Assembly: GCF_021028975.2 (NCBI RefSeq) | Contig: NC_059440.1 | Span: 10,974,001 to 11,038,000, forward strand | Source: Sphaerodactylus townsendi | Lineage: Eukaryota | DNA length: 64,000 bases | Direction of reading: 5' to 3' | Part shown: piece after piece, positions 4,360-56,501 of the stretch | Layout of the letters: each line of letters opens with the position of its first letter | Numbering within the stretch: position 1 is the first letter of the stretch | Translations under genes and position numbers: made by a program | The notes under the pieces: model-generated | Seen by the model: only the letters and a program-made list of their open reading frames with translations | Databases searched by the model: none | What the model was told of the DNA's origin: nothing

Positions 4360-4800
4360 CATTTGCGCCCTGGTTGCGTGTTTGGACGGAGCTCTCTCCC
4401 CATTGGAGGACTGGTCTGCCGCTCAATGTTTCGCTCGAGCCTAGGCTCCGCCTTCCCCTGCCACCGGAACCACCTGTCGCGTAAAGAAGCTACATTCGGT
4501 CGCTGACCCGGAAGTGTTGTCGCGGCAAGGGAGAGAAGCATGGTTGTCCCGAAGGAGGGTGGCGGCGGCGGCCACCGGCCTGGAGCCCTGAAGCAGCAGA
4601 ACAAGCCGCACAAAGCGGGCAGGCACCGCCGCAACAGCACTCGGAGGCACGCCGGTAAGCGCGCCGGGGGAAGGGTGGCGTGCGAGCGGGGTCTGGCGTG
4701 AAGAAGGCTGGGGCCGCTGAATGGCGGATGGAGCCTCTCTCCATATAGAGGTGGTCGAGCCGCAGAGAGGGGCAAGCACAGACCCCGGCAGGCGACTTCT
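4360..4800 (+). promoter_or_regulatory. TSR1 CpG-island promoter
   Basis: CpG-dense stretch spanning exon 1; ETS/GABP site CCGGAAGT at 4508-4515; inverted CCAAT (ATTGG) near 4402. Confidence 0.75.
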
Positions 4801-13800: not shown

Positions 13801-16363
13801 AGTGGTGGTATATCTTGGTTGAGAAAACAGGGCCTTTTCAGTAGTGGTATCTCCTGGGGAACAGTCTCTTCAAACAAGCCTATCTAGCATGTCATTCTCT
13901 ATTAGCAAAGCGTGTAACTTGCTCCATTGGTGGTGTTGGCATCCTCTACAGCAGGGCTAGGTGGTTCCTAGCTCACGCCAACAACAGCACATCAAAACAG
14001 TTTGCTTGGCACTCAGCCGAGTGTGGAACCAACTGAGGCTCTGGTAGCATGGCTGGTGCCAGTGATCTAGGAAGGCATGGCTTGTGCCCATTGTTGCCTT
14101 TCAGATCCGTACAGGCTACCAGCCAAGGCTAATGCCACTGCTGGGACTTGGCTTGCTCCAGGTACAAACCCAGTGTCTCTCTCCTCACCAGCTCTTTTTT
14201 TGTTTTGTTTCTGATTTAGCACCTTCACCCAGTAAACATGGCATTTTTCAGCACTTGAGCCAAAAAGGTTGATCCATCTCTTGGCTTTTGTAAAATTTAT
14301 TTCAGGTTTGGGCTGGGACTCGCATACAATGCATTGCAACTGGCTAGCTTTGGCTCTTTCCATGTTGAACAGGCTGCTAAACAGGTAGCTTACACATGCA
14401 ATAAATGATCATAAAGCTTGTAGGACTCCTCACCCCAGTCCTAGCTTGTTGCTGTCCTTGTAACTTCTGCTCTGTCATCTTGTAATATCTCTTTTCTCCC
14501 TAGGATCACATGACCTTCTGGCCACAGGTTCGCTGCACAGCGTTGACCCCAGCAGGGTGATCCTCAAAAGGGTGGTGCTTAGCGGCCACCCTTTCAAGAT
14601 CCATACAAAGATGGCCGTCGTGCGCTACATGTTCTTCAACAGAGGTACAGGTCATGAGGGAAGATTCCCCAGGGGTCCACAGTGCAGCCTTGGCATGCTT
14701 AGCACAGCGACAGGAATTTTTTTTAGTCTTGTTTGGTCAACAGACTGGGCACAGCCCATATGCTATTCTGGTTGGCCTCAGGTGGCTTTAAAAGTAAGAT
14801 CCCACATGTGCATACACACCAGCCTGTCACCCCTTTGGGAGGCAGTGCTGGAGTAAAAGGCTAGTTCTGTTAGCATGGTGCTGTTGCAATTTCATGAACT
14901 CCCATCAGTGGTTCAGAGGCCATGACGGGGAGGACCCACGGGGTAGAACAAGCTGATGATGATGAAGAAGAAGAGTTTGGATTTATATCCCCCCTTTCTC
15001 TCCTGCAGGAGACTCAAAGGGGCTTACAATCTCCTTGCCCTTCCCCCCTCACAACAAATACCCTGTGAGGTAGGTGGGGCTGAGAGAGCTCCGAGAAGCT
15101 GTGACTAGCCCAAGGTCACCCAGCTGGCGTGTGTGGGAGTGTAGAGGCTAATCTGAATTCCCCAGATAAGCCTCCACAGCTCAGGCAGCAGAGCGGAGAA
15201 TCAAACCCGGTTCCTCCAGATTAGATACATGAGCTCTTAACCTCCTATGCCAGTGGTGGCGAACCTATGGCACGGGTGCCAGAGGTGGCACTCAGAGCCC
15301 TCTCTGTGGGCACGCGCAAACAGAGTCGCCCCCCCCTCCACACACATCTAGGCTGGCCTGGGCCGCTGGGCTTGATTATTAGCATTAAACCAAAGACCTA
15401 GTTTTGAGGAAGCAGTGTAGGTAATCCTGTTAAGCACTGTTAAACCCCACCGGTTTTCATGCGAAGAACTAAAGCACAATCTGTATTGTCAAAGAACTAA
15501 AGCGTGATCCTTTACCTGGAAGTAAGATCAGTTGTTGGCAATGGGGCTTGCTTCTGAGTAAACCATCCTAGGATTGTGATTTACCCGTTGGAAGAGTTGC
15601 ACGGTTGCTTCAAAGCAAAGCCACTGACTTCCACCAAGCTTACTCCAGAGTAACACATGCCTCGGAGCCAACCATTTTTTCTAAACAAAAAACTCAGTGT
15701 TCAGGTTAAATTGCTGTGTTGGCACTTGCGATAAATAAGTGGGTTTGGGGTTGCAATTTGGGCACTTGGTCTTGAAAAGGTTCACCTTCACTGTCCTATG
15801 CCACTGCTGCTCTTTTTTTCTATGAGAAGTGCCTGGGTTTTGTATGCAAGAGGAAGAAATTATCACAGCACCCAGCCTGCTTAAGTTTTTGGAAAAATCT
15901 GTCTATACATGCACACAGCCTGGGCAGTTGCAGAGCATGAAGAGCTGTATTCTGGATGGCAGGCACATGGTAGTATCTAATGATGTGCGTGGTGTCTGCT
16001 TCCCTCTCATCCTTCTCTTTCTGCCTACAGAGGATGTGTTGTGGTTTAAGCCTGTAGCACTCCGGACCAAGTGGGGTCGGCGGGGGCACATCAAAGAGCC
16101 TGTGGGTAAGTGGGCTGGGTTGGTGGATTTAATCTAGTAGAACTACCCCAATTACTTGGCTAGCGGTTTATCACCTCTCTTCTCTGTTGCCAGGTACACA
16201 TGGCCTGATGAAATGCCAGTTTGATGGACAGCTGAAGTCCCAGGACACAGTTCTGATGACTCTGTACAAGCGGGTCTTCCCCAAATGGATATATAATAGC
16301 CATGTTCCTGGACTGTGCGAGATAGGAGAGAGTGCCCTTTGCCATGAAGAGGAAATGAACTAG
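4540..16363 (+). CDS. TSR1: Pre-rRNA-processing protein TSR1 (40S maturation factor), 806 aa. Exons 4540-4654, 6308-6411, 6793-7009, 7095-7229, 7766-8190, 8345-8504, 9586-9755, 10323-10507, 11065-11227, 12352-12462, 12696-12828, 13232-13348, 14504-14644, 16031-16105, 16194-16363
   Basis: All 14 introns GT-AG, frame preserved (2421 nt). Hallmark peptides [96 protein letters not shown]. Confidence 0.98.
5277..5986 (+). mobile_element. Rex1/Babar-type LINE, 5'-truncated 3' end, in TSR1 intron 1
   Basis: ORF end [34 protein letters not shown]...[20 protein letters not shown]...NSFF is the Rex1/Babar RT C-terminus; 3' UTR ends AATAAA + (ATTCT)n. Confidence 0.85.
6448..6719. mobile_element. Penelope-like element with inverted pLTR (fold-back) in TSR1 intron 2
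   Basis: Arms 6448-6564 and 6567-6688 are near-perfect reverse complements; hammerhead-like core on each strand; possible TSD gagctgRaac (6441-6450 / 6722-6731). Confidence 0.85.
8982..9120 (+). mobile_element. CR1 LINE 3' end fragment
   Basis: gtggagtctccttctttggaggtttttaagcagaggctg...tcttccaactctatgattct is the CR1 3' terminus. Confidence 0.8.
11488..11720 (-). mobile_element. CR1 3' UTR fragment
   Basis: cataagaacataagaaagagcctgctggatcagaccagagtccatctagtccagc; same family as 40563-41104 and 61570-62083. Confidence 0.8.
11765..12006 (+). mobile_element. Squam3-like SINE (older copy)
   Basis: tRNA-like head ggtgcagtagttacgagc...ggtttgatttccc, body gggtgaccttggg, CTT tail. Confidence 0.75.
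12531..12613 (+). ncRNA. SNORD91: C/D box snoRNA, SNORD91 family, in TSR1 intron 10
   Basis: Terminal stem GGGAAGCC/GGTTTCCC; C box GTGATGA 12540-12546; guide AATGTCTGAACCTG 12558-12571 complementary to 28S rRNA CAGGUUCAGACAUU; D' CCGA 12573-12576; C' TGACGA 12584-12589; D box CTGA 12602-12605; human TSR1 hosts SNORD91A/B. Confidence 0.9.
13739..13850. repeat. 39-bp tandem repeat, ~2.9 copies
   Basis: ggttgagaaaacagggccttttcagtggtggtatatctt at 13739, 13778, 13817. Confidence 0.9.
14964..15811 (-). mobile_element. Squam3-like SINE interrupted near its 5' end by a hAT element
   Basis: SINE body 14964-15250; last bases cactgctgc resume at 15802 after the insertion. Confidence 0.85.
15251..15793. 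mobile_element. Non-autonomous hAT (Charlie/Buster-like) element
   Basis: TIRs CAGTGGTGGCGAACCT / AGGTTCACCTTCACTG; perfect 8-bp TSD TCCTATGC. Confidence 0.9.
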
Positions 16364-16563: not shown

Positions 16564-16569
16564 AATAAA
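16564..16569 (+). terminator. TSR1 polyadenylation signal AATAAA
   Basis: First AATAAA ~200 nt after the stop codon. Confidence 0.7.
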
Positions 16570-16770
16570 AAATTATGCATTCTGTTATGAGTAATCATCT
16601 CTCTCAGACATGGGCATAGCGAGGGGTACAGGAGGGGACTTGAGCCCCAGGCACTCCTTGAGGATACAGGCATCCCATCCTGCCCAGAATCCAACATGAT
16701 TTTTGTGGCATATCTCTTTTCTCACCTGCTCAAGGGGCCGGGGGGGAGGCGGTGGTGGTGGTAATAATAA

Positions 16771-16980
16771 ACAGCAATGAGGTGGGTACCTCCTGATGCC
16801 AAAAGACAACGTGTAGCATCAGGAGGTTCCCACCTTATTGGAGAATATTCAAGCAAGACCTGAAGGCACTGAACGCTACATGGGAAGTGACTGGAACACT
16901 CATCCAAGACTGGAACTCCTGGAGAGCACTTGTTGTCTGATGTACTACTGAGCATGGGAGGATCTAACTAAATCAATAAT
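16771..16980 (+). mobile_element. Degenerate RTE-clade LINE 3' fragment
   Basis: Conceptual translation TAMRWVPPDAKRQR...FKQDLKALNATWE...DWNSWRALV resembles an RTE ORF end; followed by (AAT)-rich tail. Confidence 0.55.
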
Positions 16981-17579
16981 AATGACAACAGTGATAATCA
17001 TGACTAGTGAATGCATGATAAATAGTGATAATAATTATAACTGATTATAATGGAATGGAATTTTTAATTTGTATAACGCCCTTTCCTGAAGGGCTCCAGG
17101 GCGGTGAACATCACACAATAATATATAACAGTAATACATAGCAAATACAATGCATCAAAACAATAAATTCAACATAGCAACAATATACAATCTCAAAAAC
17201 TCTTAACATTATCAAATATCAGTATTAATAATGATGGTAATAATAAAAAGTGAATTCAGCTAGTGCCAGTGGGGTGGTCCTGACCTATTGTTGTAAGACC
17301 TCCCCTGGAAAGATTTTGGGATACATAAATACCCTTTCCTGCTAAGTCAGAAGCACCCAGATTGGAGGGGAGCCAGGAAGGGCACTTTTGGGTTTCTAAA
17401 GCTGCCTCCGTTGGCGCCCCCCGAGCTGGCAGACTGCAACCGGGGTGGGGAAAAGCATTGGCATAAAGGGGTGTGTGCCAAATGCGCCCTCCACAAGGGA
17501 GCCAGCACAAGAGGGGGGCACCCGAATGGAGGGTAGCTGACAGGCGGCCTCTGCAGCAGCAGCAGAGGGTGGGAGCCTG

Positions 17580-18220
17580 GGGGTGCGGGCACAAGACAAG
17601 GCCATTCCGCTGCTCCGGCTGGGGCGACCCTCTGCCACGTGCGGGTTGCCTGGATTCAGTGGGCACGTCCGGAAAGGTTACGCGTTTTCTCCTGTTGGTT
17701 CCCTCTGAGGCCCCGTACCCGGCGCTAGATTTGTCCTCCCGCTCTTCCGGCAATCAGCGCGTTCGGCCAATGAGGCGACAGTCCTGGGAAGTGCGGCCTA
17801 TCAGTATGCAGAGCCGAAAGGGGGCGGGGTAGTTCGGCCACTTCCGCGTGGCGTCATGGCCGGCGGCTGCTTGAATCTGTGGCGGGAGGAGAACGACGCG
17901 CTGGTTCGGCGCTGGCGGAGGAGCCCGCAGAGGGTAGCCCGGACTCTGCCCCGAGGAGCGCGCCTGGCTCGGCCGGGGGGGGGGGGGGGGGGGGTCCTTG
18001 AGGGCTGCGGGGCTGAGCTTGGCGCTCATTCCCGCTGGGCTCAGAAGAGCCGGAGGCGGGTTGTGTAGTCAATAACCGGCCTGATTCTGACCCGACTCTT
18101 TTGTAGGTTCCGACGTTCTCCGGATCAGAGGCCCGCTCGGCTGGGGAGTGGCAGGCAGCCTTCCGCAAACTGCTACAGAAGATCCAAGGTAGCGCCAAGG
18201 GGCGAGGAGCGAGCAGAAAG
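17580..18220 (+). promoter_or_regulatory. FANCG CpG-island promoter
   Basis: CpG-dense; CCAAT at 17767, GC box GGGGCGGGG 17821-17829, ETS site ACTTCCG ~17840, immediately upstream of ATG 17856. Confidence 0.75.
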
Positions 18221-21200
18221 ATCCCTGCTGGAGAGCTGCTGGGCCAGAGCAGGGGTCCATGTAGGCCAGCAGCCTCTTCTACACCTGGGCCAGTGAGAGG
18301 CCATAGAGGCCAAGGCCTTCCCCTCCTGTCATCTGAGCAGGAGGTTTGTTGCCTCTGCATACAGAGGTCCATTTTCGTCACCATGATTGGTGGCCACTGA
18401 TGCCTCTGTCTACTCCCCTGTTAAACTCATCTCTGGCCAGTTTCATCGTGATTCCATTGTGTGGAAATGAGATTTCCATCTGTGGAAATGAGATTTCCAA
18501 ACATCAGCAGTAACCATGTGCTGCAACTGCGGGTCATAGAACCAACCAGAGGGGGGTGGGTGTCTTGCTCTTGGTTCTGACCTCTCTGCGCTCCCCTCAA
18601 GACCTCGTGAGAGATTTAGAGTTTGGTGCACCACTTGGGGACTGTGACCAGAATGCTATTAAGCATAACATTAGCATCTTTGGAAAGTTCCCCCAAAGTC
18701 CCTGACAGTATCATTTTGTTTCAAAATAGGGAACTGTATAAAAATGAGGGGAATAGTTAAAAGGGAACTGGGGGGAAAACACACATAAGAGGGTCAGATC
18801 CCTAAAGGATGCTTGGAAGCTATTTAACAGCCCACTAATATAGTAGAATGCATTCTCCAGGTTAGAAAAGCGCTGCCTAGTCGAAAAGAAGGCTTGCATG
18901 GTTAACACAAGCCATAAAAAGCAAAAAGGCCTCTTTTAAAAAGTGGAACATTTGCACCAATGAGGTGAGCAGATGGGACCACAGGTTCTGGCAAAAGAAA
19001 TGTGAGTTAGTCATTCGGCATGCAAGAAAGGAATTTGAGGAATTGGTAGCTAAAAGCACCAAGACAAACAATAACTATTTCTGTATCCAGAGCAGGAAAC
19101 CAGGCAGACAAGCAGTTGGGACTTTGGATGACCCAGAATGAAAGGATTGGTAGAGAATAATGGGAAGGTGGTAGAGAAGCTCTCGCTCTCTCTCGCTCTC
19201 TCTTTTTGCCCCTGTGTTCACTGTGGAAAGTGTGGGGCATATGTCCAGGCCACGGCCGCTATTTTCAGAAAAGGAGTCTGAAGAACTGAGTCAAATTATG
19301 GTGACCCGAGATGAAAATCTACAATTGGGGAAAATAGAAATCAGTAAGTCTCTAGGCCCTGATGGCATTCACCCAAGAGTTCTTAGGGAACTCAAACATA
19401 AGAATATTGATCTACTAACCCATGTATGCAACCTGTCGCTAAATTCAGCCACTGTAACAGAAGATTAGACAGTAGCAAATGTTACACTGATCCAGAGAAG
19501 GGTCCAGAGAAGAACCACATTTTTTATAGGTCAGTTAGCCTAACTTCTTTCCCAGGCAGAAGGAAAATCAGCACAGCTTCTGCAAAGTGAAGTCCTGCCT
19601 CAGCAACCTTGTGGAGTTTTTTGAGAAAGTGATCGAACATGTTGGTAATGGTGATCCAGTGGATGTGATATACTTGAAATTTCCAAAAGCTTTTTACAAG
19701 CTACCTCACCGCGGACTCCTGTGTAAACTTCAAAGACACGAGATGAGAGGATGGGTACTTGTGATTATACAAAAGAAAGCAAAGAGTAAGAATGAATGGA
19801 CTTCCAGTAGAGTGAAATAAGTCGTAGGGCCCAGTGAGGCCCCTTTTAGATCACTCAGGATGGACTTGGTCTCTGTTGTTGCAGGGCTCCCAGCTGTGCT
19901 TCCTGCTCTGCCACTGGAGCTGACCATTCTCTGCAATTCCCTGCTCTTTGATATTGGTCTGTCCTGTGACTCCAGTGAGCAGTTATTGGCAAGGATAGAT
20001 CATGGCCTCAACAGAGGTAAGGCTTACTCATATTGTCTGAAGAACAGGATTATGGGTGCCTGGCTTTCTTCAGAGCCGCTGGCACGTAGGGCCTGGAGAA
20101 GCCTCACTTTCTACTTTCCACATCTGTCTGTAAGCAGCAGATTCAGCTGTGGTCCCTGTGAGCATAGCACAAGCTGGACCATGACATTTTTCTACCCCCA
20201 CCCCCCGCGCCTTGAAAGGAAAACAGACCTCAGCAGGCCTTGTCCCTCTCTCCTAGTTCTGGAAGCTCATGCTGTTCCTGGACAACGGTTCACCCCAGTG
20301 GACCTCTGGCAGAAAGTGCTCCATCAGGGGGTCTCTGAAGAGCTGCGGGGCCCTCTGCATCAGTTGGCTGCCCTGCAGGGCTTGCTTTGGCTGGCAGCAA
20401 ACCGCCTGGGAGAAGCAGAGGGCCTATTTCAACATCTCTGCAGTGCCGAGGTAGTGTGGAACCATTCTAGTATCTTGCCTAGTATCACAATCCAGGCATT
20501 GCTCAGTCCTTTCCTTTTGGCATAGCCTTGTTGTCACAGCTTGGAACATGTAGCACACCCTCAGGCTTTTTTTTCTGCAGCAGTGGCATGGTTAAGAGCA
20601 GGTGCATTCTGATCTGGAGAACCAGGTTTGATTCCCCACTCTGCCTCTTGAGCTGTGGAGGCTTATCTGGGGAACTAGGTTAGCCTGTGCACTCCAACAC
20701 ACACTGGCAGGGTGACCTTGGGCTAGTCACAGCTCTTCAGAGCTCTCTCAGCCCCACCCATCTCACATGGTGTTTGTTGTGGTGGCGTGGAAGAGTTAGG
20801 GACATTGTAAGCCCCTTTGAGTCTCCTTACAGGAGAGAAAAGGGGAGGGGGATAAATCCAAGCTCCTCTTCTTCCTGCAGTGGGCTGTTGTGTGAGAACA
20901 ACTTAAATTTCAGGAAGGCCGTTTCTCCAAGCCTCTGGCCACATCCTATGCACCCTGAGGGCCTGAGACTGTGGAGGAAGATTTGTCTTTATAGGGTTGG
21001 GGCATGAAGAGAAGCTCCGTGCTGAAGCAGCTGCCTCTGTTAAGCTGTGTTGCTGGCACAGAGTGCAAGGGAGCACCCCCCTTTCCTTGGGGACCTCCAA
21101 TTGCTCTGTCTCTTGGCTGCCCTGCCATTGACTTGAAATGTAGGGGTTAAGAAAACTGGAGTAGCTCAAGAATTTGGCTGGTCTCAGGAGTGCCACTTCA

Positions 21201-24200
21201 CTAAGGTTGTTCGTTTCTCAGAGCCCAGGGCTTCCTTCACATGGTGGTTGCGAGAATAAGCTCCTTTCCCTGCTCCAAGGATGGCATCCGTGTGATGTGG
21301 GGGAATCTGACCCCCTCGTGGGGCAGAGCGCTAGGGACTTGAAAGATGTTCTGTGGACTTCTGCTGCTTTCTTGCAGGGTAAGACGAATTGCTCTTGTTT
21401 TTATTTATGTACTTAGGGTATTTTTAATGTTCCTCCTTTAAAATCCTGCTCAAGGCAGCTTACAATAAAAAGCATAGCATTGAAACACAAGCTGATTGTC
21501 TTATGCAGCGTAAAAGCACTGTACCCAGCAATCTACTTCAGTTCTGCATAGAACAGAAGCAGACCACTTTAAAAAGCTGATAATATTTTTAAAAGACCTG
21601 ATTAAAAGCCTGGGTAGAAAGATGTGTTTTAGCCTGAGATGCCAGGTAGTCCTCAAGGAAGAGGTCAGGCTAAGGGTGAGCTGTCACCAAGGAATATGTG
21701 GGGGCTTGAGAGGCAGACCTGAACAATATTGTGGGGAGATGGTCCTTCAGGTCTCCCTGCCCAGATCCTGCTGCTGTTTCTAGAAACCTTTCCCCCTTAA
21801 TCTCCCTCCTCCTGTCAACACACTATGAAATGGAGCATGGTCAGTCCCCGAAAATATAACATGTGGCCCAAAATCAACCCAAACAGAATTCTCTTGGGCC
21901 GTTTCCGCACGGGCATTTAATGGCGGCCTGGAGACTCTCGGAAGCGCTCTTGTTGGGGAAACGCTGCCTCGAAGCAACGGCAGTGGCCCGAGGCGCTGCA
22001 GTGAGCGGCAGCGGCCCGAGCGCCTCCCCACCCGGCGCACCTTGTCCCGGGCCTCCCGAGGGTGTCGCCCGAGCCTGGGGACCGCCCCCCCTGCCCTGCG
22101 CCGCAGGGGCGGGCGCGCAGGACCAGGGGAGGCGTGTCCCCAAAGCTCGGCTGCTGCACCGAGAGCCGAGGACATCTGGCTCGGCTGAAGCGCCCGGCGC
22201 TCTCCCTTGGCGCTGGCTGCCCTGCTCTTTCCAGGACCGTCCATGCGGATGGTCCCAGCGTTGTCGGGTCGGCGTCGGAAACGCTGACCCGGCTGCTTCC
22301 GCATTCGTGCAGAAATGGCCTTGGATTACTTTGGAAGATCCTGGGGCTTTGGAGACCCTCCAAGAGAAGATCTTGCTAACAGGGCAAGGAAGGGGTGGCC
22401 AAGAGTTCCACGTTCCACTTGGCAACAGCCATGGTCAGAGATTTGCTCTTGGGTATGACAGTGGGATGTGGGTGCAAGAAATAATTTCTTCCACAGACAG
22501 GATCTTGCAAGCCCCATTTCTGCTGGGTTAACTGGTGAAACACTCATTCACAGATGAAGAAGACAATAGGCGGCTCTGTAGGGGAAGGATCACAGTGTGC
22601 CCCATAAGCAAAAAAACAAACCCCACAAGTTAAGGATGGGAAGAGCTTTGCCATTCCAAGCAGGAATCCACCACCTGCCCCTTCATTCAACTAACTCCTC
22701 TCACACACAGGACCCAAGTCTGAGTTGGCCCATTGGTTGTCCTGTGGGGTTGGAAGGCCCCTGCCCCATCTTGACAAGGCAGGGTGGGGCTCATACTTCA
22801 GTCTTGTCTCTTTCCTTCAGGCTTTCAGGAACTGGTTGCAGGCAATCACTCTGTGGCTCTTGCCCTTCTCCAAGCAGCTGCCACTGGGCTGTGTCCGAAG
22901 AGAGTTCTGGCCCAGATCTTTACGTTAATGGGATGCTGCAATGTGAAAATGGTATGGAGACAGTTTGTGTGATGGTGTGTGAACAACGAGCGATGGCAGA
23001 AGAGGAATTGTGAGGCAGTGTTAGTAGGGCCCAAGGCTAACTGGCTGTTGGCATCAATTGCCTGCGATGCAGATCTGGAGACAGAAAAACCAACTGTGTT
23101 TCTGCAAAGCATAGTTGAAGCAGCTTCCTCGCTTGCTTTTGCCTCCCCTGCTGGGCTTCTGAAGCAATGTGCAGGCCACCCAGCCAGACGCCGTTTGTTA
23201 TTAAGTAAGGTAGATGAGAGAGGCCGTTCGTCCCTTGCATTCCTTCAGAAGAACCAAAAAGGCAGAATTTTCTCATAGTTGTCAAGACAGGTGTATGTCT
23301 GTCTTATAATTTGTCCCTGCAAATAAAATCTGTCATGCAAATTGCCAGAATGGGGAAAAAAAGGATATTGTTCCTGTCCCATAAATGTATTTTTTTTAAT
23401 TTGCAGCAGTGGTGTAGGAGGTTAAAAGCTCGTGTATCTAATCTGGAGGAACCAGGTTTGATTCCCAGCTCTGCCGCCTGAGGTGTGGAGGCTTATCTGG
23501 GGAATTCAGCTGGGTGACCTTGGCTAGTCACAGCTTCTCGGAGCTCTCTCAGCCCCACCTACCTCACAGGGTGTTTGCTGGGAGGGGGGAAGGGAAAGGA
23601 GATTGTAAGCCCCTTTGAGTCTCCTGCAGGAGAGAAAGGGGGGATATAAATCCAAACTCTTCTTCTTCTTCTACTCACAAATATTCATCTGACTTTATTA
23701 GAAGAGTTTGGATTTATGTCTCACTTTTCTCTCCTTTAAGGAGACTCAAGGTGGCTGACAAGCTCCTTTCCCTTCCTCTCCCCACAACAGACACCTTGTG
23801 AGGCAGGTGGGGTTGAGAGAGTTCCAAAGAACCCAAGGTCACCCAGCAGGAATGCAGGAGTGCGGAAATACATCTGGTTCACCAGATAAGCTTCTGCCAC
23901 TCACGTGGAGGAGTGGGGAATCAAACGTGGTTCTCCAGATTAGAATCCAACTGCTCTTAACCACTACACCACGCTGGCTCTCTTAATAAACATGCTACCT
24001 TTGCATTTTTACCCAACCCTTCCTCTAGAGAGATCAAGGCAGTACAATGGTTCTTTCTTCCTCCACTTTATCTCAGAGCAACTCTATGGGAGTGCCCGGC
24101 CAAAAGTAATCCCCTAAGGACTGTGGTGCCTTGATCACATGGATCTGAATTCATCCCTCTGTGTACTGCACTACAGTAGCTCTGAAGCATGACAGAAGCG

Positions 24201-27200
24201 TCACAAAGGAGAAGGGAAGGAGGGGTCTGTGGGGGATCACATCCTGTCATCACAGGAAAGGCTAGGCCACACTGCCTTCATTAGATCCCAGTTGTGGCTG
24301 CACCTTCTCTCCACTGCAGGGTAAGCCGCAGACGACGATCCAGTGCCTGAAACGAGCCCTGCAGGTGGACTCCTCCTTCCTTCCTGCCCTGCACCAAGCG
24401 GCCTTGTTGTATCGCCACCTGGGCCTCATGGAGGCAGAGCTGGAGGCCTTGACATTGCTTTATCAGGTCTGATTGGTTGCTTTTCTGGCTTGATGGGATA
24501 TAATCAAGGGCTATGGGGATGCTTCTGCTGTCTCTGTCCAGAGAGGGGATCACTGGCCACGCCCGATCCTGACCCTAGAAATGGGCCACTGTTGAATCAA
24601 CTGGTTCTGTCTTTGTTTATGGGCCTCCTCAGCCTTTTGCTGGGCCCAGGTTCTCCCTGGATAAAGGGCAGGAGCAGTTTGCAAACACAGCCTTTGAGGA
24701 AGGGGTGGGAGCTATTGCCGTCCTGGCTGGTAGTGAACAGAGCTTCTCCCCTGTCTAGGCCATGGAGGGCCCAACAGAGACAGCCATAAAATCCCTCAGC
24801 CCACTTTCCCTTGTCAGCGTGGAACTCCTCATCTGCACGCCACGTCTTCGTGCTTTCTTTGGCCGGAACTCTTCATTGGAAGTGAAGTACCTGCTGGCTC
24901 ACAGATGCCTCGAGGCTGGAAGGTGCGTGCCCCTCCCTCTTGTAGAAGGCTCCCCTAGTCCCGTGGTGGCGAACCTTTGGCACTCCAGATGTTATGGACT
25001 ACAATTCCCATCAGCCCCTGCCAGCATGGCATTGGCCATGTTGACAGGGGCTGATGGGAATTGTAGTCCATAACATCTGGAGTGCCAAAGGTTCGCCACC
25101 ACTGCCCTAGTCCCTTCTCGGGGTTGGAGAGAACTTGTGAGTTGAAAATGACTCACTGGATAGTTCTGGAGTGGGGGGAGAATGGTGGCACCCCAGCTTT
25201 GGAAGTGCAGTGGCGGTCAGGGGAGGGGGCAAGCTGAAGGCAGTGGAAGAACTGCACATTGAGCATAGCCCCCATATCGGGGGTCTGTGGGGTATCTCCC
25301 CTCCACCTCTCTTCCTTCTGACAGGGCGGGGGAGGCAGCAGAGCACTACCTGGACCTCTTGGCTCTGTGGCAGGACGGACCTCTTCACCAGGTGGGTACC
25401 TTGCAACTCTTCAGCTTTGGAGGCACACTTTATATTGCCTTTACTCGTCTGCTATTTTGCCTAGAGGGTCTCTTGGGGTTCTGCAGGCTGCTTGCAATTT
25501 TGGCCCTAAATAGAAGAAAGCGGGTTTGGATTTTTATACCACCTTTCTCCTGTAAGGAGACAAGGCAGCTTACAAGCTCCTTTCCCTTCCTCTCCCCATA
25601 ACAGATGCCCTGTGAGGTAGGTGGGGCTGAGAGAGTTCCGAAGAACTGTGACTAGCCCAGGGTCACCCAGCAGGAATGTAGGAGTGCGGAAACACATCTG
25701 GTTGAGAACCATGACAGTATTCCACCTTAAGCTAGCCTCTCCTTTCCTGCGCTTTCAGTTTTTCTGTTCTCAGTTTTATTTTTGCTGGTTTGTGTTTCTT
25801 TTCGTTTGGTGTCTTTTGTTTTGTCCTGGTTATTGATTACTGTTGATTATTGGAAGCAACACTGTTGTTATGTGTATGTAGAAGGTTGCACTATTAGAAA
25901 TCCTTTTTATGCACTATTTAATTGCATATTTATGGTTGATCACCACTCTGAGCCTGTTTGCAGGGCAAGCGGTATATAAGCCAAAGAAATAATAATAAAG
26001 AACTAGATGTATCATTTCAGCATGACTTCAAAGCTTGTTTTTGGTTTCCTATTCCTTATTGTGAATGTTTTAATGATACCGTTGTGTATTGATTTTATAT
26101 TGTGTGATTGTTATGTTTTTACTGATGTTTGCTGCCCTGAGCCCTGTTGGGAAGGGCGGGATATAAATCAAATAAATAAATAAATAAAATTAAGTGTCAG
26201 GCATTTTTTTGGGAAGGCCCCCTGGGTGAATTTTTTAGAGCTGTTGAATATAAAGACTTGAACAATGCAAAGGACGACACCAAATTTTGACCCCAGGAGC
26301 TGCTTTTCCTTCTTCTTCACAGGAACCTCTCTGTGGCAAATTGGCCATACCCAGGATCCCTCAGGTGTTTCTGGAAGCTGCGGCTGCCCTGGAGGAGGTG
26401 ACCAGGCACCGAGATGCCATCGCCATATGTGAGGAGGTGGTCACCAGAACAAGCCATCTGATCCCCCAGAGTCTGCGGATTGATGTGGGCTCGAGCACGC
26501 TAGAGGAGGGCAGCCAGGGGCCCCCGGGGGCCTCACTGGCACAACAGGAGAGGGAGAAACTGTGTTGCGTTCTTTGGCGGGCCACTGCCTATCTTCTGCA
26601 AGGCTGCGCATCGGCAAGGCTAGGAGAAGCCAAGGAAGCCATCAGCGTCTTGACCAGGTGAGTTAGTCTCTGAGCATCCAGCCTGGGTTCCTCTCTTGTT
26701 TGTCCCATTTGTAAAAGAGAAGGTTGGTGCTATGAGGAAGAAGCAGAGAAAGAGCATTTTCACACCTCCCTGGGAATTGAAAAGCAAGCTCTACAAGCAG
26801 CAGTGGTGTAGTGGTTAAGAGCAGGCGGATTCTAATCCGGAAAACCGGGTTTGATTCCCCACTCTGCCACTTAAGCTGTGGAGGCTTATCTGGGGAACCA
26901 GATTAGTTTGTGCACTCCAACACACACCAGCAGGGTGACCTTGGGCGAGTCACAGCTCTTCAGAGCTCTCTCAGCCCCACCCACTTCACAGGATGTTTGT
27001 TGTAGGGGGTGGGGAGGGAAAGGAGATTGTAAGCCCCTTTGAGTCTCCTTACAGTAAAGAAAGGGGGGGGTATAAATCCAAACTCTTCTTCAAGATGCAA
27101 ACCCCCAACTGTTTTTTCTCAGATATGTGTTTTCCCTCTCTATCCCAGCAAGTATCCTGTGAGAATGCTTGTTTCTGTGCATTGGATCCCCACCCCCCAA

Positions 27201-30062
27201 GTCTATATTCTGCCCTGAGGCAATCCTTCCTCGGTAGCTGATTATTTCTTTTGTTGATTCTCCTTGCTGCTGCTCATTGTCATACCATTCCTCAGCTGCT
27301 AAGTGCTCCTGCTTCCAGTTCTGAACGTATCTTTTCAAACTCCAAAGGTAGTGAAAACAAAACAAACAAGATCCACAAGATGCTGGTCTCGGTTCCAGAT
27401 TTTTGTTTCTGGACTTGTGTAGTCTGGTTATAGGCTTGGAGGAAATGCACTCCCTATCCAGGTCTCTCTAGCCCTCTCCTGGGTGGTAACTGTTCAAATA
27501 CGTCTTCATAGCCTGGTGCTGCTGAAGTTCTTCTGACAGCTCTGAAAGGATTGCAAAATAAAACAGAGGTTCCGTGGCCCCTTAAAACCAGCGGTGGGAT
27601 CAAAAAAATTTAGTAACAGGTTCCCATGGTGGTGGTATTCAAACTGTGGCGTAGCGCCAATAGAGCTGGGCGGGGCACGTTGGGGGTGTGGCCGGGCACG
27701 ATGGGGGCGGGGCATTCCTGGGCGGGGGTGTGGCAAGGATGCAGCTGCTGCGCCTGTCCTTGGGCAGGAAACGAATGCACACAGGTGCAGGCTGCCACGC
27801 ACACCAGTGCATCTCCTGCTAGACTGCTTCAAGTTCTGCACGCTACTGCTGAGAGGAGGGGCGTAACTAAGGCAAAAATCACGTGGCAAAATCACCATTT
27901 AGTAACCCCCTCTCGGCACATACAAATAATTAGTAACCTACTCTCGGGAACCTGTGAGAACCTGCTGGATCCCACTTCTGCTTAAAACTAATATGTATCT
28001 CAATGTGAGCTTTTCTGGGTCACAATTGACTTTTCCCAGTATGTGAAGGAGAAAATCATACAGAATCCAGTACGTTAAGGAGAAAATCATACAGAATTCT
28101 TATGGGCAAGATTATAGGATTGGAAGATCATATTGAAATAAAAGTTGTTAGTCTCTAAGGTAATCTACCTGCTCTTAACCACAGGCCTCTTCTTTTGTGA
28201 AGCTCTGAAGTGACTCTGCTTTGCTGTTTTCAGGTGCCTTCACGATCTCCTGCGAATCCAGTTTGTAAATACAGGTAGGGATGAAGTGGTTTTCTGCCTG
28301 TTCCTGCCTCTCTCCCTCTTGGCTGGGGAGGTTTCTTAAGCTGTAGAGAGCCTCTCTTGCAGGTGCAGCTGGATCCCTGGTTGCTGCCAGAAATGGATCA
28401 GGCCTCCTTTTCTGATTGTTGCTCAGTTCTCCCCTTTCAGGGCCAAAAGTGCAGAGAGCCATGTCGCGTTCTTGACTGGATCTTGAGCCCTGTGGGGAAA
28501 AGGCGGGATACAAATCTAATAAAATCATAAAAAATAAATACTTTACAGTTTCTGCTGCTTTATATTTTCCCATTTAGACCAGATTGGCTCCTCTTTAAAC
28601 CTTTGCTGTTCTCTGACGGCAGAGTTTCCAGGGGAAACATGTTGCGCTGTGGACCTGGCTATATCTCAGAGCTGAGAAACGGGTTCTGTTTTTATGGCTT
28701 TTGCTAGAACCCGACACTGCGATGGACTCTCAGTGAGAGACCCCTTTTCCTCCTTTGGCAGGCAGTAACAGCACTGAAGAACAACTGGCCCTGTTTGCTC
28801 CATTGGAAGCCAAGATGATTCCCCAAGTCAGGCATCTGGCTCTGACTGTCCGAGGAGCAGAGTTCTTGGAGCTGGGGAGAGACAAAGAAGCCTTGATGGA
28901 TTTCCAGCATAGTTTGCACTTCTGCCCAGGTACCCTGCCTTTTGGGTGCTTTATGTGCAAATGGGCTACAGTGGGTCTAACAGTCGGGCTGGGGCTTGTG
29001 CGCACCTTATAAGAAGCAGAATATTAGAGCATGTTAGAACGCTTCTGCAATGTTGAGCTGGCAGATTCTTAGTGCAGAATCAGGGCCAGGTCTGACTGAC
29101 TGACCTTAAAAAAGCATGGGGTACGGCACATTTGGAAGAAGGGGAATTCGGATTTATACCCCACCTTTTTCTCTTGTAAGGAGACTCAAGGTGGCTTACA
29201 AGCTCCTTTCCCTTCCTCTTCCTACAACAGTCACCTTGTGAGGCAGGTGGGGCTGAGAGAGTCCTGACTGTGACTAGCCCAAGATCACCCAGTAGGTGTG
29301 TAGGAGTGCGGAAACACATCTGGTTCACCAGATAAGCCTCTGCCACTCAGGTGGAGGAGTGGGGAATCAAATTACAGATTAGAATCCGCCTGCTTTTAAC
29401 TACCGCACCACGCAGGAAACCTGTGCCCTGTTCTAGTCGCCATGTTTCAAGACGGATGTTGAAGGGCTGGGTAAAGGACACTGTGATTTGACCCCCAGGT
29501 ACTTTGGGCTCTGGTCTAGCCTGGCATTGAGACCAGCTCAATTTGCAGCTCCTCCTTTGTGTGTTGCAGAGAGCCCTGCTGCGCACTGGTATCTGCTACA
29601 CACCCTCTGGAAACTGGACAGGAAGCAAGAAGCCCTGGCACATTGGCAGAAGTTCCACACGAACCCTGTGTTGATGGAGGAAGAGGCTGAAAGGTACATA
29701 TTTATTACTGAGCCTTGCTTTGCACTCTCTACACAAGCAGGGGGACAAATTTGAGTTAAAAGTGACTTGGGAGTGCCAGGAGAATTCTGTCCAGTGAGTT
29801 CAGCGGGCTGCATCTAGTGCAGTAGTTATGTCTGGCATCCAGTGGCATGTTAAAAGGATGATCTTCCATTTGTTGCTCCATCCCTAGTGGAGCCCAAATC
29901 CTATATTTGTCTGCCCTCATAGCTAAGAATGCCTTGGCTTTATGTTTCAGATCCTGCCCACAATACTTGTATCTGTGTATGAAGTGGATGAAGTTTCCCC
30001 ACTCGGAATCCCTGGCCAAGAATCTGGAAACTTGTTTGGGGGAGAGAAGGCAGAAGCGCTAG
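17856..30062 (+). CDS. FANCG: Fanconi anemia group G protein (XRCC9; TPR protein of the FA core complex), 643 aa. Exons 17856-17933, 18107-18188, 19885-20016, 20257-20450, 21222-21378, 22821-22951, 24320-24466, 24759-24922, 25325-25391, 26323-26657, 28234-28274, 28762-28929, 29570-29693, 29951-30062
   Basis: 14 exons, all GT-AG, open frame (1932 nt). Peptides match human FANCG motifs: CLNLWREENDALVR (CLDLWREKNDRLVR), QGLPAVLPALPLELT, AATGLCPKRVLAQIFT, RAGEAAEHYLDLLAL, PQVFLEAAAAL, DKEALMDFQHSLHFCP, LLHTLWKLDRKQEA. Confidence 0.95.
18670..19820 (+). mobile_element. Degenerate CR1 LINE ORF2 (reverse transcriptase) fragment in FANCG intron 2
   Basis: Frameshifted peptides SKSLGPDGIHPRVLRELK and KSCLSNLVEFFEKV...DPVDVIYLKFPKAFYKLPHRGLL. 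Confidence 0.85.
20577..20876 (+). mobile_element. Squam3-like SINE
   Basis: gcagcagtggc..gttaagagcagg head, gggtgaccttgggctagtcacag body, CTT tail. Confidence 0.85.
21897..22320. mobile_element. GC-rich PIF/Harbinger-like MITE in FANCG intron 5
   Basis: TIRs GGCCGTTTCCGCACG / CGTGCAGAAATGGCC; 3-bp TSD TTG (21894-21896, 22321-22323). Confidence 0.85.
23403..23672 (+). mobile_element. Squam3-like SINE
   Basis: Full head-to-(CTT)n copy with an internal deletion. Confidence 0.85.
23701..23980 (-). mobile_element. Squam3-like SINE
   Basis: Reverse-orientation copy, tail-to-tail with 23403-23672. Confidence 0.85.
24961..25104. mobile_element. Palindromic hAT MITE
   Basis: TIR GTGGTGGCGAACCTTTGGCACTCCAGATG; perfect 8-bp TSD CCCTAGTC. 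Confidence 0.9.
25511..25702 (-). mobile_element. Squam3-like SINE, 3' half
   Basis: Reverse complement of SINE 3' portion. Confidence 0.75.
26797..27091 (+). mobile_element. Squam3-like SINE
   Basis: Full-length copy with A/B-box-like head and CTT tail. Confidence 0.85.
27589..27980. mobile_element. Non-autonomous hAT element
   Basis: TIRs CAGCGGTGGGATC / GATCCCACTTCTG; perfect 8-bp TSD CTTAAAAC. Confidence 0.88.
29135..29413 (-). mobile_element. Squam3-like SINE
   Basis: Reverse-orientation copy. Confidence 0.8.
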
Positions 30063-30186
30063 TGTTGCCGTGTGACCCTTTTCGGCTTTCCTTTCTGGCA
30101 TGCGGACTTCCTGTGGGGCTTTTCTCAGACTCCTTTCGTGGTTGGAAACTGAGGCCATGGCATGTAATATAGGTAGCATTTTTCCT

Positions 30187-30192
30187 AATAAA
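30187..30192 (+). terminator. FANCG polyadenylation signal AATAAA
   Basis: First AATAAA ~125 nt after the stop codon. Confidence 0.65.
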
Positions 30193-30974
30193 AAATATTG
30201 CTTACACCTTGCCTTATTTTGCAGCTATGCAGTACAGCTGTAAAAATAATAGAGGACTGGGGAGAATTAGTTGGGTGTGTTTGGGTGCCTGGATTGAGGG
30301 GCAGACCAGGGAATTATTTCCTTATTAGAGCTCTTATGCACTGTACCACACTGAGAAAAGGGCTGTAGAGGCTGCGCTGGGGTGGTGGAATCAATTATGG
30401 GGTGTTGAGCAACTCTAATAATTAACAGAAAAGACTAAACTTGGCCCCTGAGGATTCCCAAATACTCTTTTTAGTTAAGAACTAGGGTAGCTTAGTGCCT
30501 CCTTGTCCAGAGTCCAATTGTACAATTATCCAAAAGATGGCAGTCAGATGTTTCAGTGGAGGGGGGGTACAATTTCATTGCTTGACCTGGGCACCCTTTC
30601 CTGTAGCTACGCCCCTGCTCTCAGATCCCCCCTTCCTCAAGGAAACAAAGGGACATACTAGAGCAGAAATGGCGAACCTTTTGGCCATGGCGTGTCAAAA
30701 ATTCGGAAAATTACTAGACTCTGCTGGCATGTAACACCCCCCACACACAACAAAAGAGAACCTATATGCCATTAAAGGTTAAAATGAATGAAAATGAATG
30801 AACAAAAGAGAACCAATTCTTTACATATTCATTTTATTTTTAGTTAATTTAAAAAATTTAATTTGTTAGACTTACTACAGTCCAATCACGTGTGGTGCTA
30901 TGTAGTATTTTATAAAGAAACATTAAATAACGACCAAAATGAAACAAACTCAGTTATTGTTGGGTGTTGGTGAC

Positions 30975-31725
30975 GCTGCACGACAGCCCTTGCTCTGTAT
31001 TGCTGCGGCCCCGCCTGTGCCCTGCGGCGGGGGTTCCTGCATTGCTCTTCCCGCTAATGAACACGGATCTCGCCGTAGGGCTCGGGTGCCAGCCGCGCAA
31101 GGCTCTCCGCTCGGTTTTCACGCCGCCTCGTCCCCGCCACGTGGTTTCGTTACGTGCTGAGGGCGCTTCCGAGCCCCGTTTTCCCGTTGACAACCAGCGC
31201 CGGAGCACAGCTTTCGCCGTCTCTAGGCCTCGGTCTCGATGGTCTTTGGTGCCACTTCCGGGAGAGATTCCTGCGGCGGCGTGGGGAGGGGGGTAGAAGT
31301 CCCATACGCCTCTGCGCGGGATTGGCCTTTCTCGGCCGCCATCTGTTTCCCTGGCGCCGGGAAGTAAAATGGCGGCGGCGGAGCTGGAGAGGGTTCGTGT
31401 CTCGGCGGCGGAGTTGAGGAGGGGGATTCTGGCGGCGGAGGCGGCGCTGGGGAGGGGCGGCCCAGGTGAGGCCCGTGGCGGGGGGCCGAGCTTGCGTGAG
31501 CGGCCTGCCTCTTGGCTCGGCGCGCTTTCCTCAGCCCGCTCCCGCTCCGTTAACGCCGGACGGGGGTGTGGCGGGGAGAGCCTCGGCCGGAGGACGGGCG
31601 ATACCAGTGGGGCGGACGCCTGGTTGTGCCCGTCGCCGGAGCCCGGCCAGGGTTGAAACCATCCTGGTGAAGCAGGCTCGAGGCTTTGGTCGCTGATGCC
31701 GGGCTGGGAGGTGTGGCGGTCCGTT
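30975..31725 (+). promoter_or_regulatory. SMG6 CpG-island promoter
   Basis: CpG-dense; E-box CCACGTGG 31137-31144, ETS CACTTCCGG ~31253, YY1-type AAAATGGCGGC overlapping the ATG. Confidence 0.8.
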
Positions 31726-34700
31726 AGCTATCCTTTACTACAGGGGGTTGCAACCTGCGGCTCTCCAGATGTTCATGGACTACAAATCCCATCAGCACCT
31801 GCAAGCATGGCCAATTGGTCATGCTGGCAGGGCTGATGGGAATTGTAGTCCAACATCTGGAGAGCCGCAGGTTGCAGACCCCTGTTCTACTACAACCTTT
31901 TTAGTGAGAGTGGCTGATGCTTTGGGGGCGCCCTGTTGCAAGACGCTTTTGGATCTCCGAAAGCCCCGCTTTTTCTCTTCTCCAGCAGTAGTTTAGACTA
32001 TGCCTGCCAAACATAAGCGAGTCTCTCTGGCACTGCCAGGCTGCGCTTTTGACTTTGCTCCAGTAGTCGAATAGGGTGAACTTATCACAGTTTTCGTTTA
32101 TAAGTTGCTTTGGGTCACCTCACAATCCAGGAACATCAAATATATGTAATAACACCGTCATGATCTCTAGGCTGTGATATGTGCGGTGTGAAACTTAATC
32201 TCATGTTGGAGTCCTGGTAATCCAGCATGGGACAAACTGGTCCCTGCATGGAAGGGGATGTTGGATTCTGTCATGTGATCCTTTCGTACATTTAAACGTA
32301 GGATTGGTCAGTGATTTCCAGTTGTACCCCGGGATCTCTCCTCTCAAAATGTAAACCATGTGTAGAAGCTTCACATCTATTGTACAAATAAGATTCTTTG
32401 ATGGTGATATATGTACCTACACATGTATATAAAATACACAGGGTATACACGTGCTTGTGTTGGTGTAGCTTATTTTAAGATCTTTAATTGTGCTTTGCCT
32501 TAAGATGTTAGTGGTAATTCCCATTTTGCTGCTGGGAACACAGGATGAGAGAAGGACATGTCAGAGGCCATGCTGTGAACATTTTAGAGACGGAGCTTGA
32601 AGTTTGGCTCTAACTCCCCTGATTGTGAACTCTTTGGCCACTAGCTGATATAGAGCTAGAGGTGCATGAGAAGTCCACACATTTTGCTGTGCACTTAATC
32701 CTTGCATTGGGTTGTAGCTCTTTTTAGGGACATAAATCCATTTAATTTTGTTAAACCTAACTCTTTTCATCTAACCATGGAATCTTACTACAGAATAAAG
32801 GGTTGAGGCCGAGAGAGCAACTTGGTCCAAAGCCAGTAATTCTAGTCGAGGGGAGGACTGGGAACTCTCACAGTTTCTGAGCTGTGTTGCCTCTCAGCTC
32901 TGCAGCACAAGGGTTCCTTGATTAAACATTGCCTGAAATCTTAAATGAATCCTGAAAACCAAGTGACGTCTGCATCCTATCACCGGCAAGTGACTATGGC
33001 TTCATTCTATCCCAGCAGTACAGCTGAAAAGCACCCAGATCCCCGTTCCCCCACATACACTTGAACCTATAGCAGCTTGGTGGTCTTTGAGGGGCTCACC
33101 CTACCCTTAAAAAAAATATTGCAGAACCTGAGAAGGTGCAGAAAAGAGTAACCAAGATGATCGGCAGGGCTAGAGCAACTGACCTATAACATTTAGGACT
33201 GTTGAGCTTAGAAAAAGAGGGTAGGGGGAGACATGATAAAAGGTCTATAAAATTTTGCAAGGCATGAAGAAAGTGGACAGGGAGAAGCGTTTCTCACTCT
33301 CATAATAACTAGAACGCGGAGTCATGTACTAAAGGATGAGAGATTCAAAACAGACAAAAGGAAGTATTTCTTCACAAAGTCCATAGTTAAATTGTGGAAC
33401 TCCTTGCTCCAGCCTGTGGCAACAGACACCAACTTGGAAGGCTTTTAAGAGGATATGTTCATGGAGGATAGGGCTGTCTGTGGCTACCAATCAAAATGGA
33501 TTCTAGCTGTGACGTTAACCTGTTCTCTCCAGTTTCAGAGGAGTTTGTCGATTATATTAGGTGCTGTGAAACACAGGGAGAATAGTGCTGCTGCAGTTGT
33601 CTTTTTTGTGGACTTCCTAGAGGCATCTGGTTAGCTACTGTGTGAACAGACTGCTGCACTTGATGAGCCATGGTTTGATCTAACACGGTTTATATGTTCT
33701 CAGCAATAATTGCTTCAAAACTAATCAGGTGGATTTGCAGCCTGCTCATTGGAAGGACTGACATTTCTTGATACTCTGCACTATAAAAGAAATAAACAAA
33801 TAGGCTCAAAAGCTTTGTTTGTTACAAGTTCATATATTTTAGTATTTACTCTTGGTAGTAGCAGTGACAATTAGATGAACCTTTATCTGTGGCAATTAGA
33901 TGAACCCTTCGTTTACATTAATTAAAAATAAATTTCAAGGCTGACCGCCGAGTCAGTTGAAGCCCTGCTCAGGAGTTAAGCAAACCTTGCCTAATAAACC
34001 TTGTACCAATAGTCACCTTGTTTGTTCCAGAACCCTGCCATGCCAGGGTTCTGTTGCCGTGGACACAACTTCCCCCAGTGTTCTGATACCTGGAAGCTGA
34101 GAACAGAGGTACCTGGCATTCATTGTATCCTGCAGGTTGGTAGTGGCACACAGAGCTAACCAGTGGGAGGCATCTGATGCAGTTGGGATGTTCTCTCCTG
34201 CAGAAGGTCAGTTCTGGCTCTGCCATAGCGATTCTGGGCAGGTGTGATACAGCATTACAATGGGATTTGTAATACCCCCACTATACTATGAAATTTGCTT
34301 GAGTGACCTTGGGCTACTCACGTACTCTTAGCCTAACCTATCAATGGGATATGAAGATGAAAGGGGGAAAGGAGAATCACATGTGTCTTGAAATCTTTAC
34401 AGGGAAGGGCAGAATTAAAATGTAGAGATGGATAGAAAACAAACAGGAATATTTTGGGACCTGCAGAAGAAGTGGTTACTTGGTTCACAACCATTAATGG
34501 TTGTGGAGAGCTAGATATACGTTTAAAATAGTAGATGCTAATATTTGATTTATTGGGATGTGGAATAAACAGCATCACGTTTTGGTACCTGTCCTGTCAG
34601 GTGTTCATAAGACAACTTCAGAGTAATAACTGGCCACCAGCTTCGAAGTTGTCCAAGCAGCAAACACATCCTTGGTTGTTCCAGCACTGAAATGGAAAAG

Positions 34701-56213: not shown

Positions 56214-56270
56214 GTATTTTCCGGGCCGGGTGGGGAGGGTCGGGACTGCTGTGCTTTTGTGGACTTAGGA

Positions 56271-56411
56271 CAGGGGTCTGCAACCTGCAGCTCTCCAGAT
56301 GTTCATGGACTACAAATCCCATCAGCCCCTGCCAGCATGGCCAATTCTGGCAGGGGCTGATGGGATTTGTAGTCCATGAACATCTGGAGAGCTGCAGGTT
56401 GCAGACCCCTG
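56271..56411. mobile_element. Palindromic hAT MITE
   Basis: TIR CAGGGGTCTGCAACCTG; perfect TSD ACTTAGGA. Confidence 0.9.
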
Positions 56412-56501
56412 ACTTAGGAGAAGGATGGAAGGACAAGTATGCTTGGGTCCCTGGTTGGGTCAGCCACCACATTCAGATCTTGGGGCACTCTTTCACTCAT
56501 G

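What the first reader, a model, noticed from the sequence alone, without database searches (positions are those of the whole stretch)
17856..30192. Intact FANCG relocated, introns and all, into the TSR1-SMG6 interval
Seen: a complete 14-exon FANCG with its own CpG promoter and poly(A) signal between TSR1 and SMG6, on the same strand. Known: in human this interval (17p13.3) holds SRR, whereas FANCG lies at 9p13 next to VCP; I recall the VCP linkage also in chicken (Z) and fish. Inference: FANCG moved here in a reptile lineage by a DNA-level transposition or translocation, not retroposition, because 13 introns are present as in human. The result is a compact head-to-tail POLDIP2-TSR1-FANCG-SMG6 cluster of genome/RNA maintenance genes with only ~1.2-1.5 kb between each poly(A) signal and the next ATG.
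Basis: partly seen in the sequence, partly recalled or inferred. Interest (0 to 1): 0.7.

Follow-up and report, generated by a model that had tools for sequence, protein, structure and literature searches.

The report
Dwarf-gecko FANCG jumped; neighbours scattered too
In this dwarf gecko the DNA-repair gene FANCG sits intact, with all its introns, on a different chromosome from the neighbours it keeps in birds and other lizards, and two of those neighbours have each moved to other places as well, likely because whole genes were copied as DNA and the originals then lost, a known process.

Summary
Real. A 14-exon, 643-aa, stop-free FANCG lies between TSR1 and SMG6. It is the only copy found in the assembly and the true ortholog (sister to Euleptes FANCG). 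Chicken, Pogona, Anolis and Podarcis keep VCP-FANCG-PIGO-STOML2 together, and other geckos keep FANCG with PIGO, so the move is recent, likely within sphaerodactylid geckos. Both acceptor and donor flanks stay collinear, so it is an insertion, not a translocation. New here: the donor is empty (FAM214B-like gene runs straight into VCP), STOML2 now sits between PAIP1 and NNT, and PIGO is on a third chromosome. No target-site duplication or transposon ends survive. Short-read contigs from two organisms cover both junction flanks but break in short repeats. This is a 'relocated gene', a known kind; this scan's unchecked notes report other relocations elsewhere in the same genome.

The parts
17856..30062 (+). 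FANCG coding span, 14 exons: 17856-17933, 18107-18188, 19885-20016, 20257-20450, 21222-21378, 22821-22951, 24320-24466, 24759-24922, 25325-25391, 26323-26657, 28234-28274, 28762-28929, 29570-29693, 29951-30062
17501..17855 (+). CpG-rich upstream region of FANCG with ETS-type, CCAAT and GC-box motifs and no TATA match; promoter function inferred
30187..30192 (+). AATAAA, likely FANCG poly(A) signal
4540..16363 (+). TSR1 coding span (upstream neighbour); AATAAA at 16564
16740..17240 (.). Junction 1 zone: short high-copy repeats, likely two LINE 3' ends (class recalled) with A/T-rich tails; the upstream breakpoint likely lies here
   Evidence: depth peaks; blast hits
30560..30980 (.). Junction 2 zone: short high-copy repeats, the larger resembling a truncated hAT-type element (class recalled); the downstream breakpoint likely lies here
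   Evidence: depth peaks
31369..64000 (+). SMG6 (downstream neighbour), first exon 31369-31465 in a CpG island; runs beyond the window
1..1475 (+). POLDIP2, last exons

Best explanation
This is the gecko's only detected FANCG gene, intact and orthologous, which likely moved as a roughly 13-14 kb piece of genomic DNA (promoter to poly(A) signal) from between VCP and PIGO into the gap between TSR1 and SMG6, likely by being copied first and then lost from the old site. Shown: intact gene, single copy in the assembly, empty donor, collinear flanks at both sites, ancestral order in four outgroup species, PIGO and STOML2 at two other sites. Inferred: copy-then-loss rather than cut-and-paste; insertion during double-strand-break repair or repeat-mediated recombination; timing after the split from Euleptes; SRR gone from the slot before FANCG arrived. 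The protein would work as in other vertebrates, as a TPR scaffold of the Fanconi anaemia core complex (established knowledge), from a promoter that it likely brought along.
For: Single copy: Euleptes FANCG against the whole genome gave 16 listed matches of 20 candidates, 12 of them exons in this window (E 2e-45 to 4e-5) and 4 at E 4.5-7.4. Ortholog: sister to Euleptes, 98/94 support, in a 13-protein tree that follows gecko families. Donor: FAM214-family last exon (PF13889) ends about 6 kb before the VCP start codon, with DnaJ/DnaJ_C exons beyond VCP; no FANCG, PIGO or STOML2 remnant in 200 kb (best E 0.5-0.8). STOML2 lies between PAIP1-like and NNT-like exons, 21.7 Mb away; PIGO is on contig C11 between FAM75-like and CDC25-like genes. 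Outgroups keep the block: chicken Z, Pogona, Anolis (PMC4902969 supplements) and Podarcis (PMC9856856 supplement). A Gekko kuhli gene model fuses PIGO (aa 95-1079) to FANCG (aa 1101-1793); FANCG and PIGO share a contig length in 8 of 8 species with both values, and FANCG and TSR1 differ in 5 of 5. Acceptor order TMEM199-POLDIP2-TSR1--SMG6 matches chicken chr19. Contigs of the best-holding run match both junction flanks with 0 differences; a second organism's contigs carry the same flanks.
Against: No listed contig spans a whole junction stretch: the chain has a 33-base unlisted hole at 17146-17178 and only a 16-base overlap at 30773-30788, both in repeats, and run X1 may be the assembly's own sample. 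No target-site duplication or inverted ends beyond shuffles (longest direct 11 nt, reached by 62 of 300 shuffles; longest inverted 10 nt, reached by 195 of 300), and no decayed donor copy, so copy-then-loss is not shown. The Euleptes date rests only on accession-number distance. The G. kuhli record is labelled UNVERIFIED_CONTAM by its source, though it groups with G. japonicus. UNC13B beside the donor has exons 1-3 inverted against the rest, so the donor region is either unstable or locally mis-assembled. Amphibian and fish orders were not tested.
Confidence: 0.72

Rival explanations
1. One larger STOML2-PIGO-FANCG block was copied more than once and each copy kept a different gene (segmental duplication with reciprocal loss), rather than three separate single-gene moves.
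For: Three consecutive genes are missing from one donor with a clean join; one unstable block explains this more economically. An unchecked note (e1-9829852) reports duplication mosaics in this genome.
Against: No neighbour remnants at any new site: no PIGO or STOML2 match in the window, no FANCG or STOML2 match in 160 kb round PIGO, no PIGO match round STOML2, and FANCG matches there only at chance level. FANCG's flanks leave only about 1.2 kb on each side.
Confidence: 0.13
2. A DNA transposon (Pack-TIR type) carried FANCG, or it was cut and pasted without a duplicate stage.
For: A truncated hAT-like repeat abuts the 3' junction (class recalled). An unchecked note (e1-9964967) reports a cargo-carrying hAT element in this genome.
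Against: No paired inverted ends or target-site duplication above shuffles; a 13-kb complete gene is large cargo; similar repeats are common in this window's introns, so one at a junction is expected.
Confidence: 0.09
3. Assembly artefact: FANCG was mis-joined into this interval.
For: Both junctions contain short repeats and no listed contig spans them entirely; an odd inversion in UNC13B lies near the donor.
Against: It needs two false joins here, a false join at the donor and four more for PIGO and STOML2, all at gene boundaries; no N in the window, the donor stretch or the PIGO stretch; the repeats are under about 500 bases; unique flank sequence is attached to the same repeats in two samples of organism A and in organism C.
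Confidence: 0.05
4. The order is ancestral, or FANCG arrived by retroposition.
For: None found.
Against: Four outgroup species and three other gecko genera keep FANCG with VCP or PIGO; 13 introns are present.
Confidence: 0.01

Closest known systems
Relocated genes as defined by Toups et al. 2011 (PMC3242482; passages seen): one-to-one orthologs on non-homologous chromosomes, parent usually lost after duplication; 37 (26 under stricter criteria) likely DNA-mediated pairs between chicken and zebra finch
   Same: One-to-one ortholog, different chromosome, introns kept, parent copy gone.
   Different: Here the direction is polarised by outgroups, and three adjacent genes left one donor for three sites.
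Positional relocation from avian dot chromosomes: CARMIL3, IRF9, PLEKHA4, TPPP2 (PMC12954441; passages seen)
   Same: Intact genes leaving a GC-rich, unstable region for non-syntenic sites; the donor here is GC-rich (0.58 over 200 kb) and 3.1 Mb from a contig end.
   Different: The donor is the end of a large chromosome homologous to chicken Z, not a dot chromosome; the neighbours moved rather than being lost.
Squamate rearrangement-linked gene loss (PMC13005343; abstract, sections 5 and 14, supplement hits seen)
   Same: Lineage-specific rearrangement of conserved blocks in squamates, some near telomeres.
   Different: That paper concerns losses; FANCG, SRR, TSR1, SMG6, VCP and PIGO have 0 occurrences in its main text.
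Vertebrate FANCG (human 7kzp_G; squamate orthologs P0001-P0017)
   Same: Full length, all 14 exons alignable, 80% identical to Euleptes FANCG.
   Different: Genomic position only; no change in the protein was found that points to a new function.

Membership tests
FANCG ortholog | Full-length similarity to FANCG and placement with the species tree | tested here: met
FANCG ortholog | Expressed and active in the Fanconi anaemia core complex | not testable with these tools
   no expression or functional data were obtained
Relocated gene (DNA-mediated) | One-to-one ortholog, single copy in the genome | tested here: met
   (assembly may be incomplete; the search scores best candidates only)
Relocated gene (DNA-mediated) | On a chromosome not homologous to the outgroup location | tested here: met
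   C16 with chicken-19 genes versus C7 with VCP, DNAJB5-like, NNT
Relocated gene (DNA-mediated) | Introns retained | tested here: met
   13 GT-AG introns
Relocated gene (DNA-mediated) | Passed through a duplicate stage (decayed parent copy) | tested here: inconclusive
   no remnant at the donor; absence fits old loss or excision alike
Retrogene | Introns lost | tested here: not met
Chromosomal translocation breakpoint | Synteny changes on one side of the site and stays changed | tested here: not met
   chicken-19 order resumes on both sides; donor flanks are rejoined
Pack-TIR / transposon-borne cargo | Paired terminal inverted repeats and a target-site duplication round the cargo | tested here: not met
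   (exact-word test against 300 shuffles; old, decayed ends would be missed)

The most novel reading that the evidence does not exclude
Dwarf geckos carry a gene-exodus hotspot: a GC-rich chromosome-end block that stayed intact from mammals to other geckos shed three consecutive housekeeping genes, one at a time, to three collinear sites, as part of a lineage-wide rise in whole-gene DNA transposition; and the slot that FANCG took marks an older loss of serine racemase across lizards, which would make them natural knockouts of the enzyme that makes D-serine in mammalian brain.
Probability: 0.3. Interest if true: 0.62.

Novelty: new member of a known kind. Interest (0 to 1): 0.36.

Why it matters
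By itself a moved FANCG is a synteny footnote and a usable phylogenetic marker within Sphaerodactylidae. It matters more as part of a pattern: three neighbours from one old block each sit alone in otherwise collinear regions, which offers a dated test of whether intact genes leave GC-rich chromosome ends at a raised rate, a question posed for bird dot chromosomes (PMC12954441). It also warns that gene position on the chicken-Z homolog cannot be assumed in gecko sex-chromosome or dosage studies. The likely absence of serine racemase is a separate lead on D-serine signalling in lizards.

Tried and rejected
An extra open frame at about 23070-23210 in intron 6 was considered as a 15th exon and dropped: the 14-exon model is in frame without it and aligns fully. 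A second CDC48_N locus on C3 is a diverged VCP-like paralog, not the donor. A phosphodiesterase-family hit on C6 first taken for PIGO is a sulfatase-like exon. The PALP locus on C8 is not SRR: it is closer to threonine dehydratases (E 1e-7) than to human SRR (E 1.5e-3). Pfam did not name FANCG exons 3 or 10, the POLDIP2 last exon or SMG6 exons (2 of 8 proteins hit at E below 0.001). Codon-based ORF picking was poor and covered only part of the frames (117 of 1,998 round STOML2, 123 of 2,226 round VCP, 146 of 881 round PIGO), so other neighbours may be missed. No RNA holder listed. Run X5 (organism B) gave low-depth pieces, some identical to the window and some about 87% alike, so it was not used for breadth. 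Paper searches: FANCG+synteny+VCP+PIGO gave 0 papers; FANCG+TSR1+SMG6 gave 1 unrelated mouse paper, listing only; two searches on serine racemase in reptiles listed no paper containing the term; some searches gave listings only, apart from the papers cited. The SRR row in PMC13005343's supplement shows an id without values. Earlier-finding look-ups by gene names and by relatives returned nothing. bioRxiv supplements were not available and two picture files of PMC4902969 were not searched; a gecko gene-order table there could bear on the dating.

Full report
Observation. The gene model was built from splice sites in the window: 14 exons from 17856 to 30062, 643 codons plus stop, all 13 introns GT..AG. 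Every exon aligns to other lizard FANCG proteins, 48-100% identical to Euleptes, and exon 10 hits human FANCG in the Protein Data Bank at E 9e-11. A CpG-rich bin covers the start and an AATAAA lies at 30187. TSR1 lies upstream, SMG6 downstream and POLDIP2's last exons open the window, all on +. A named TSR1 record from Sphaerodactylus townsendi is identical over the exon searched, so the genome is a dwarf gecko's.

One copy, true ortholog. Exon 10 found one place in the genome (1 match of 7 candidates). Full-length Euleptes FANCG found 12 exons, all in this window, and four chance matches at E 4.5-7.4 (16 listed of 20 candidates). In a 13-protein tree the gene is sister to Euleptes (98/94) inside geckos.

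The donor. VCP is on contig C7 at 3.13-3.16 Mb with DnaJ and DnaJ_C exons beyond it. Upstream, a FAM214-family last exon (PF13889, E 4e-13) ends about 6 kb before the VCP start codon. In outgroups STOML2, PIGO and FANCG fill this gap. Here no remnant of any was found in 200 kb (best E 0.5-0.8), and DNA matches between the gap and the three new loci were repeats or short weak hits. STOML2 is 21.7 Mb away on C7, between PAIP1-like and NNT-like exons; PAIP1 and NNT are 30 kb apart in Anolis. PIGO is complete on C11, between a FAM75-like frame and CDC25-like exons. PAIP1, TMEM199 and UNC13B were named from short recalled motifs, not from a database hit to those exons.

Outgroups. Supplementary gene tables of PMC4902969 (row look-ups and one part read) give DNAJB5-VCP-FANCG-PIGO-STOML2 as consecutive genes on chicken Z and on one Pogona scaffold, and VCP-FANCG-PIGO-STOML2-FAM214B on one Anolis scaffold. 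The table of PMC9856856 (row look-ups) gives the same order on Podarcis chromosome 11. Chicken chromosome 19 reads TMEM199, POLDIP2, TSR1, SRR (opposite strand), SMG6, which is this window's order with FANCG where SRR was. In Pogona and Podarcis POLDIP2 abuts SMG6, TSR1 is elsewhere, and chicken SRR has no Pogona partner. The human arrangement is recalled; amphibians and fish were not tested.

Dating. A Gekko kuhli gene model joins PIGO to FANCG in the ancestral order; the source flags it UNVERIFIED_CONTAM, but its FANCG half groups with G. japonicus. FANCG and PIGO share a contig length in 8 of 8 species where both were given, Eublepharis and Heteronotia among them, while FANCG and TSR1 differ in 5 of 5. 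For Euleptes, the same family, there is only a weak proxy: its FANCG and TSR1 accession numbers are 15,993 apart, like different-chromosome pairs in Eublepharis (14,771) and Heteronotia (22,080) and unlike same-chromosome pairs (703, 374). So the move likely followed the split from Euleptes and preceded the split from organism C, a close relative whose contigs differ by a few percent.

Junctions. In run X1, contigs with 0 differences cover 15900-16803, 16774-17145 and 17179-17994, and 29400-30788, 30773-30834 and 30805-31750; run X3, another sample, tiles similarly with more holes at the second junction; organism C has contigs over FANCG exons 13-14 plus 490 bases past the poly(A) signal, over the SMG6 promoter and over the FANCG promoter with exons 1-2. 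No listed piece spans a whole stretch, the tables were cut, and X1 may be the assembly's own sample. A mis-join is therefore unlikely but not excluded.

SRR. Three genome searches (PF00291, 16 matches of 17 candidates; NF005454, 6 of 7; a bacterial protein that hits human SRR at E 6e-50, 7 of 10) found CBS-, SDS-, THNSL1- and threonine-dehydratase-like loci and nothing on C16. Twelve minus-strand frames across the interval matched no NCBIfam family, while the control exon matched 36. No vertebrate SRR was available as query, so absence is likely (about 0.8), not shown. A Gekko japonicus-based table of 18,964 genes has no srr row. Against a squamate-wide loss, SRR is not named in the main text of a paper on 53 genes lost in squamates; why is unknown. 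Since SRR is also missing from the slot in lizards whose FANCG never moved, the two events are likely independent.

Mechanism. Introns exclude retroposition; collinear flanks at both ends exclude a simple translocation. What remains is an insertion of genomic DNA. Flank comparison found no target-site duplication or inverted ends beyond shuffles, so transposon capture has no support, though old ends would have decayed. Copy-then-loss is preferred by inference: a move without a duplicate stage would yield gametes lacking the gene, and relocated genes are usually explained this way (PMC3242482). An unchecked note on TTLL13 in this genome describes a dead donor copy, which would fit. Whether the three genes moved singly or as one block with reciprocal loss is open; the lack of neighbour remnants favours single moves. 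The compact spacing is inherited: chicken and Pogona are as tight.

Comparison and verdict. This meets the published definition of a DNA-mediated relocated gene, of which 26-37 are reported between chicken and zebra finch; relocations out of GC-rich dot chromosomes are described in birds (PMC12954441). I found no paper on this case. It is a new member of a known kind. The scattering of three neighbours, and this scan's unchecked notes of other relocations in the same genome, lift it somewhat above a footnote. Interest 0.36.

Noticed in passing
G000:C7:3,058,500-3,090,500 versus 2,900,000-2,966,000 (L023, L026, L027, L104-L107): UNC13B-like exons 1-3 lie on + while the C1, C2B and MUN exons lie on -; no N in 2.93-3.22 Mb. 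Either a real inversion that cuts off the N-terminal C2A exons or a local mis-orientation.
   Followed up: partly
whole genome G000; window 16570-31370: No serine racemase found in three searches; the gene that older lizard annotations call 'srr' is likely the threonine-dehydratase-like gene at C8:2.50 Mb.
   Followed up: partly
PMC4902969 and PMC9856856 tables: TSR1 has itself left the POLDIP2-SMG6 interval in Pogona and Podarcis, so this small interval changed gene content independently in two lizard lineages.
   Followed up: partly
G000:C11:77,197,000-77,222,000 (L091-L094): A 25-kb extremely G+C-rich short-period tandem array 20 kb downstream of PIGO, between CDC25-like and FAST-kinase-like exons.
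   Followed up: no
G000:C11:77,152,296-77,155,286 (L088:2296-5286, -): A 997-codon frame with three FAM75 (SPATA31-like) stretches head-to-head with PIGO; relatives of this family lie near VCP in human (recalled).
   Followed up: no
window 21897-22321: A CpG-rich element in FANCG intron 5 with roughly 15-base inverted ends and a possible 3-base flanking duplication, likely a Harbinger-type MITE; it explains the CpG peak at 22001-22500.
   Followed up: no
G000:C3:109,673,524-109,673,697 (L003): A second, diverged VCP-like gene.
   Followed up: no
G000:C4:70.90 and 70.96 Mb; C13:40.16-40.18 Mb: Two tandem CBS-like genes and two head-to-head SDS-like genes.
   Followed up: no
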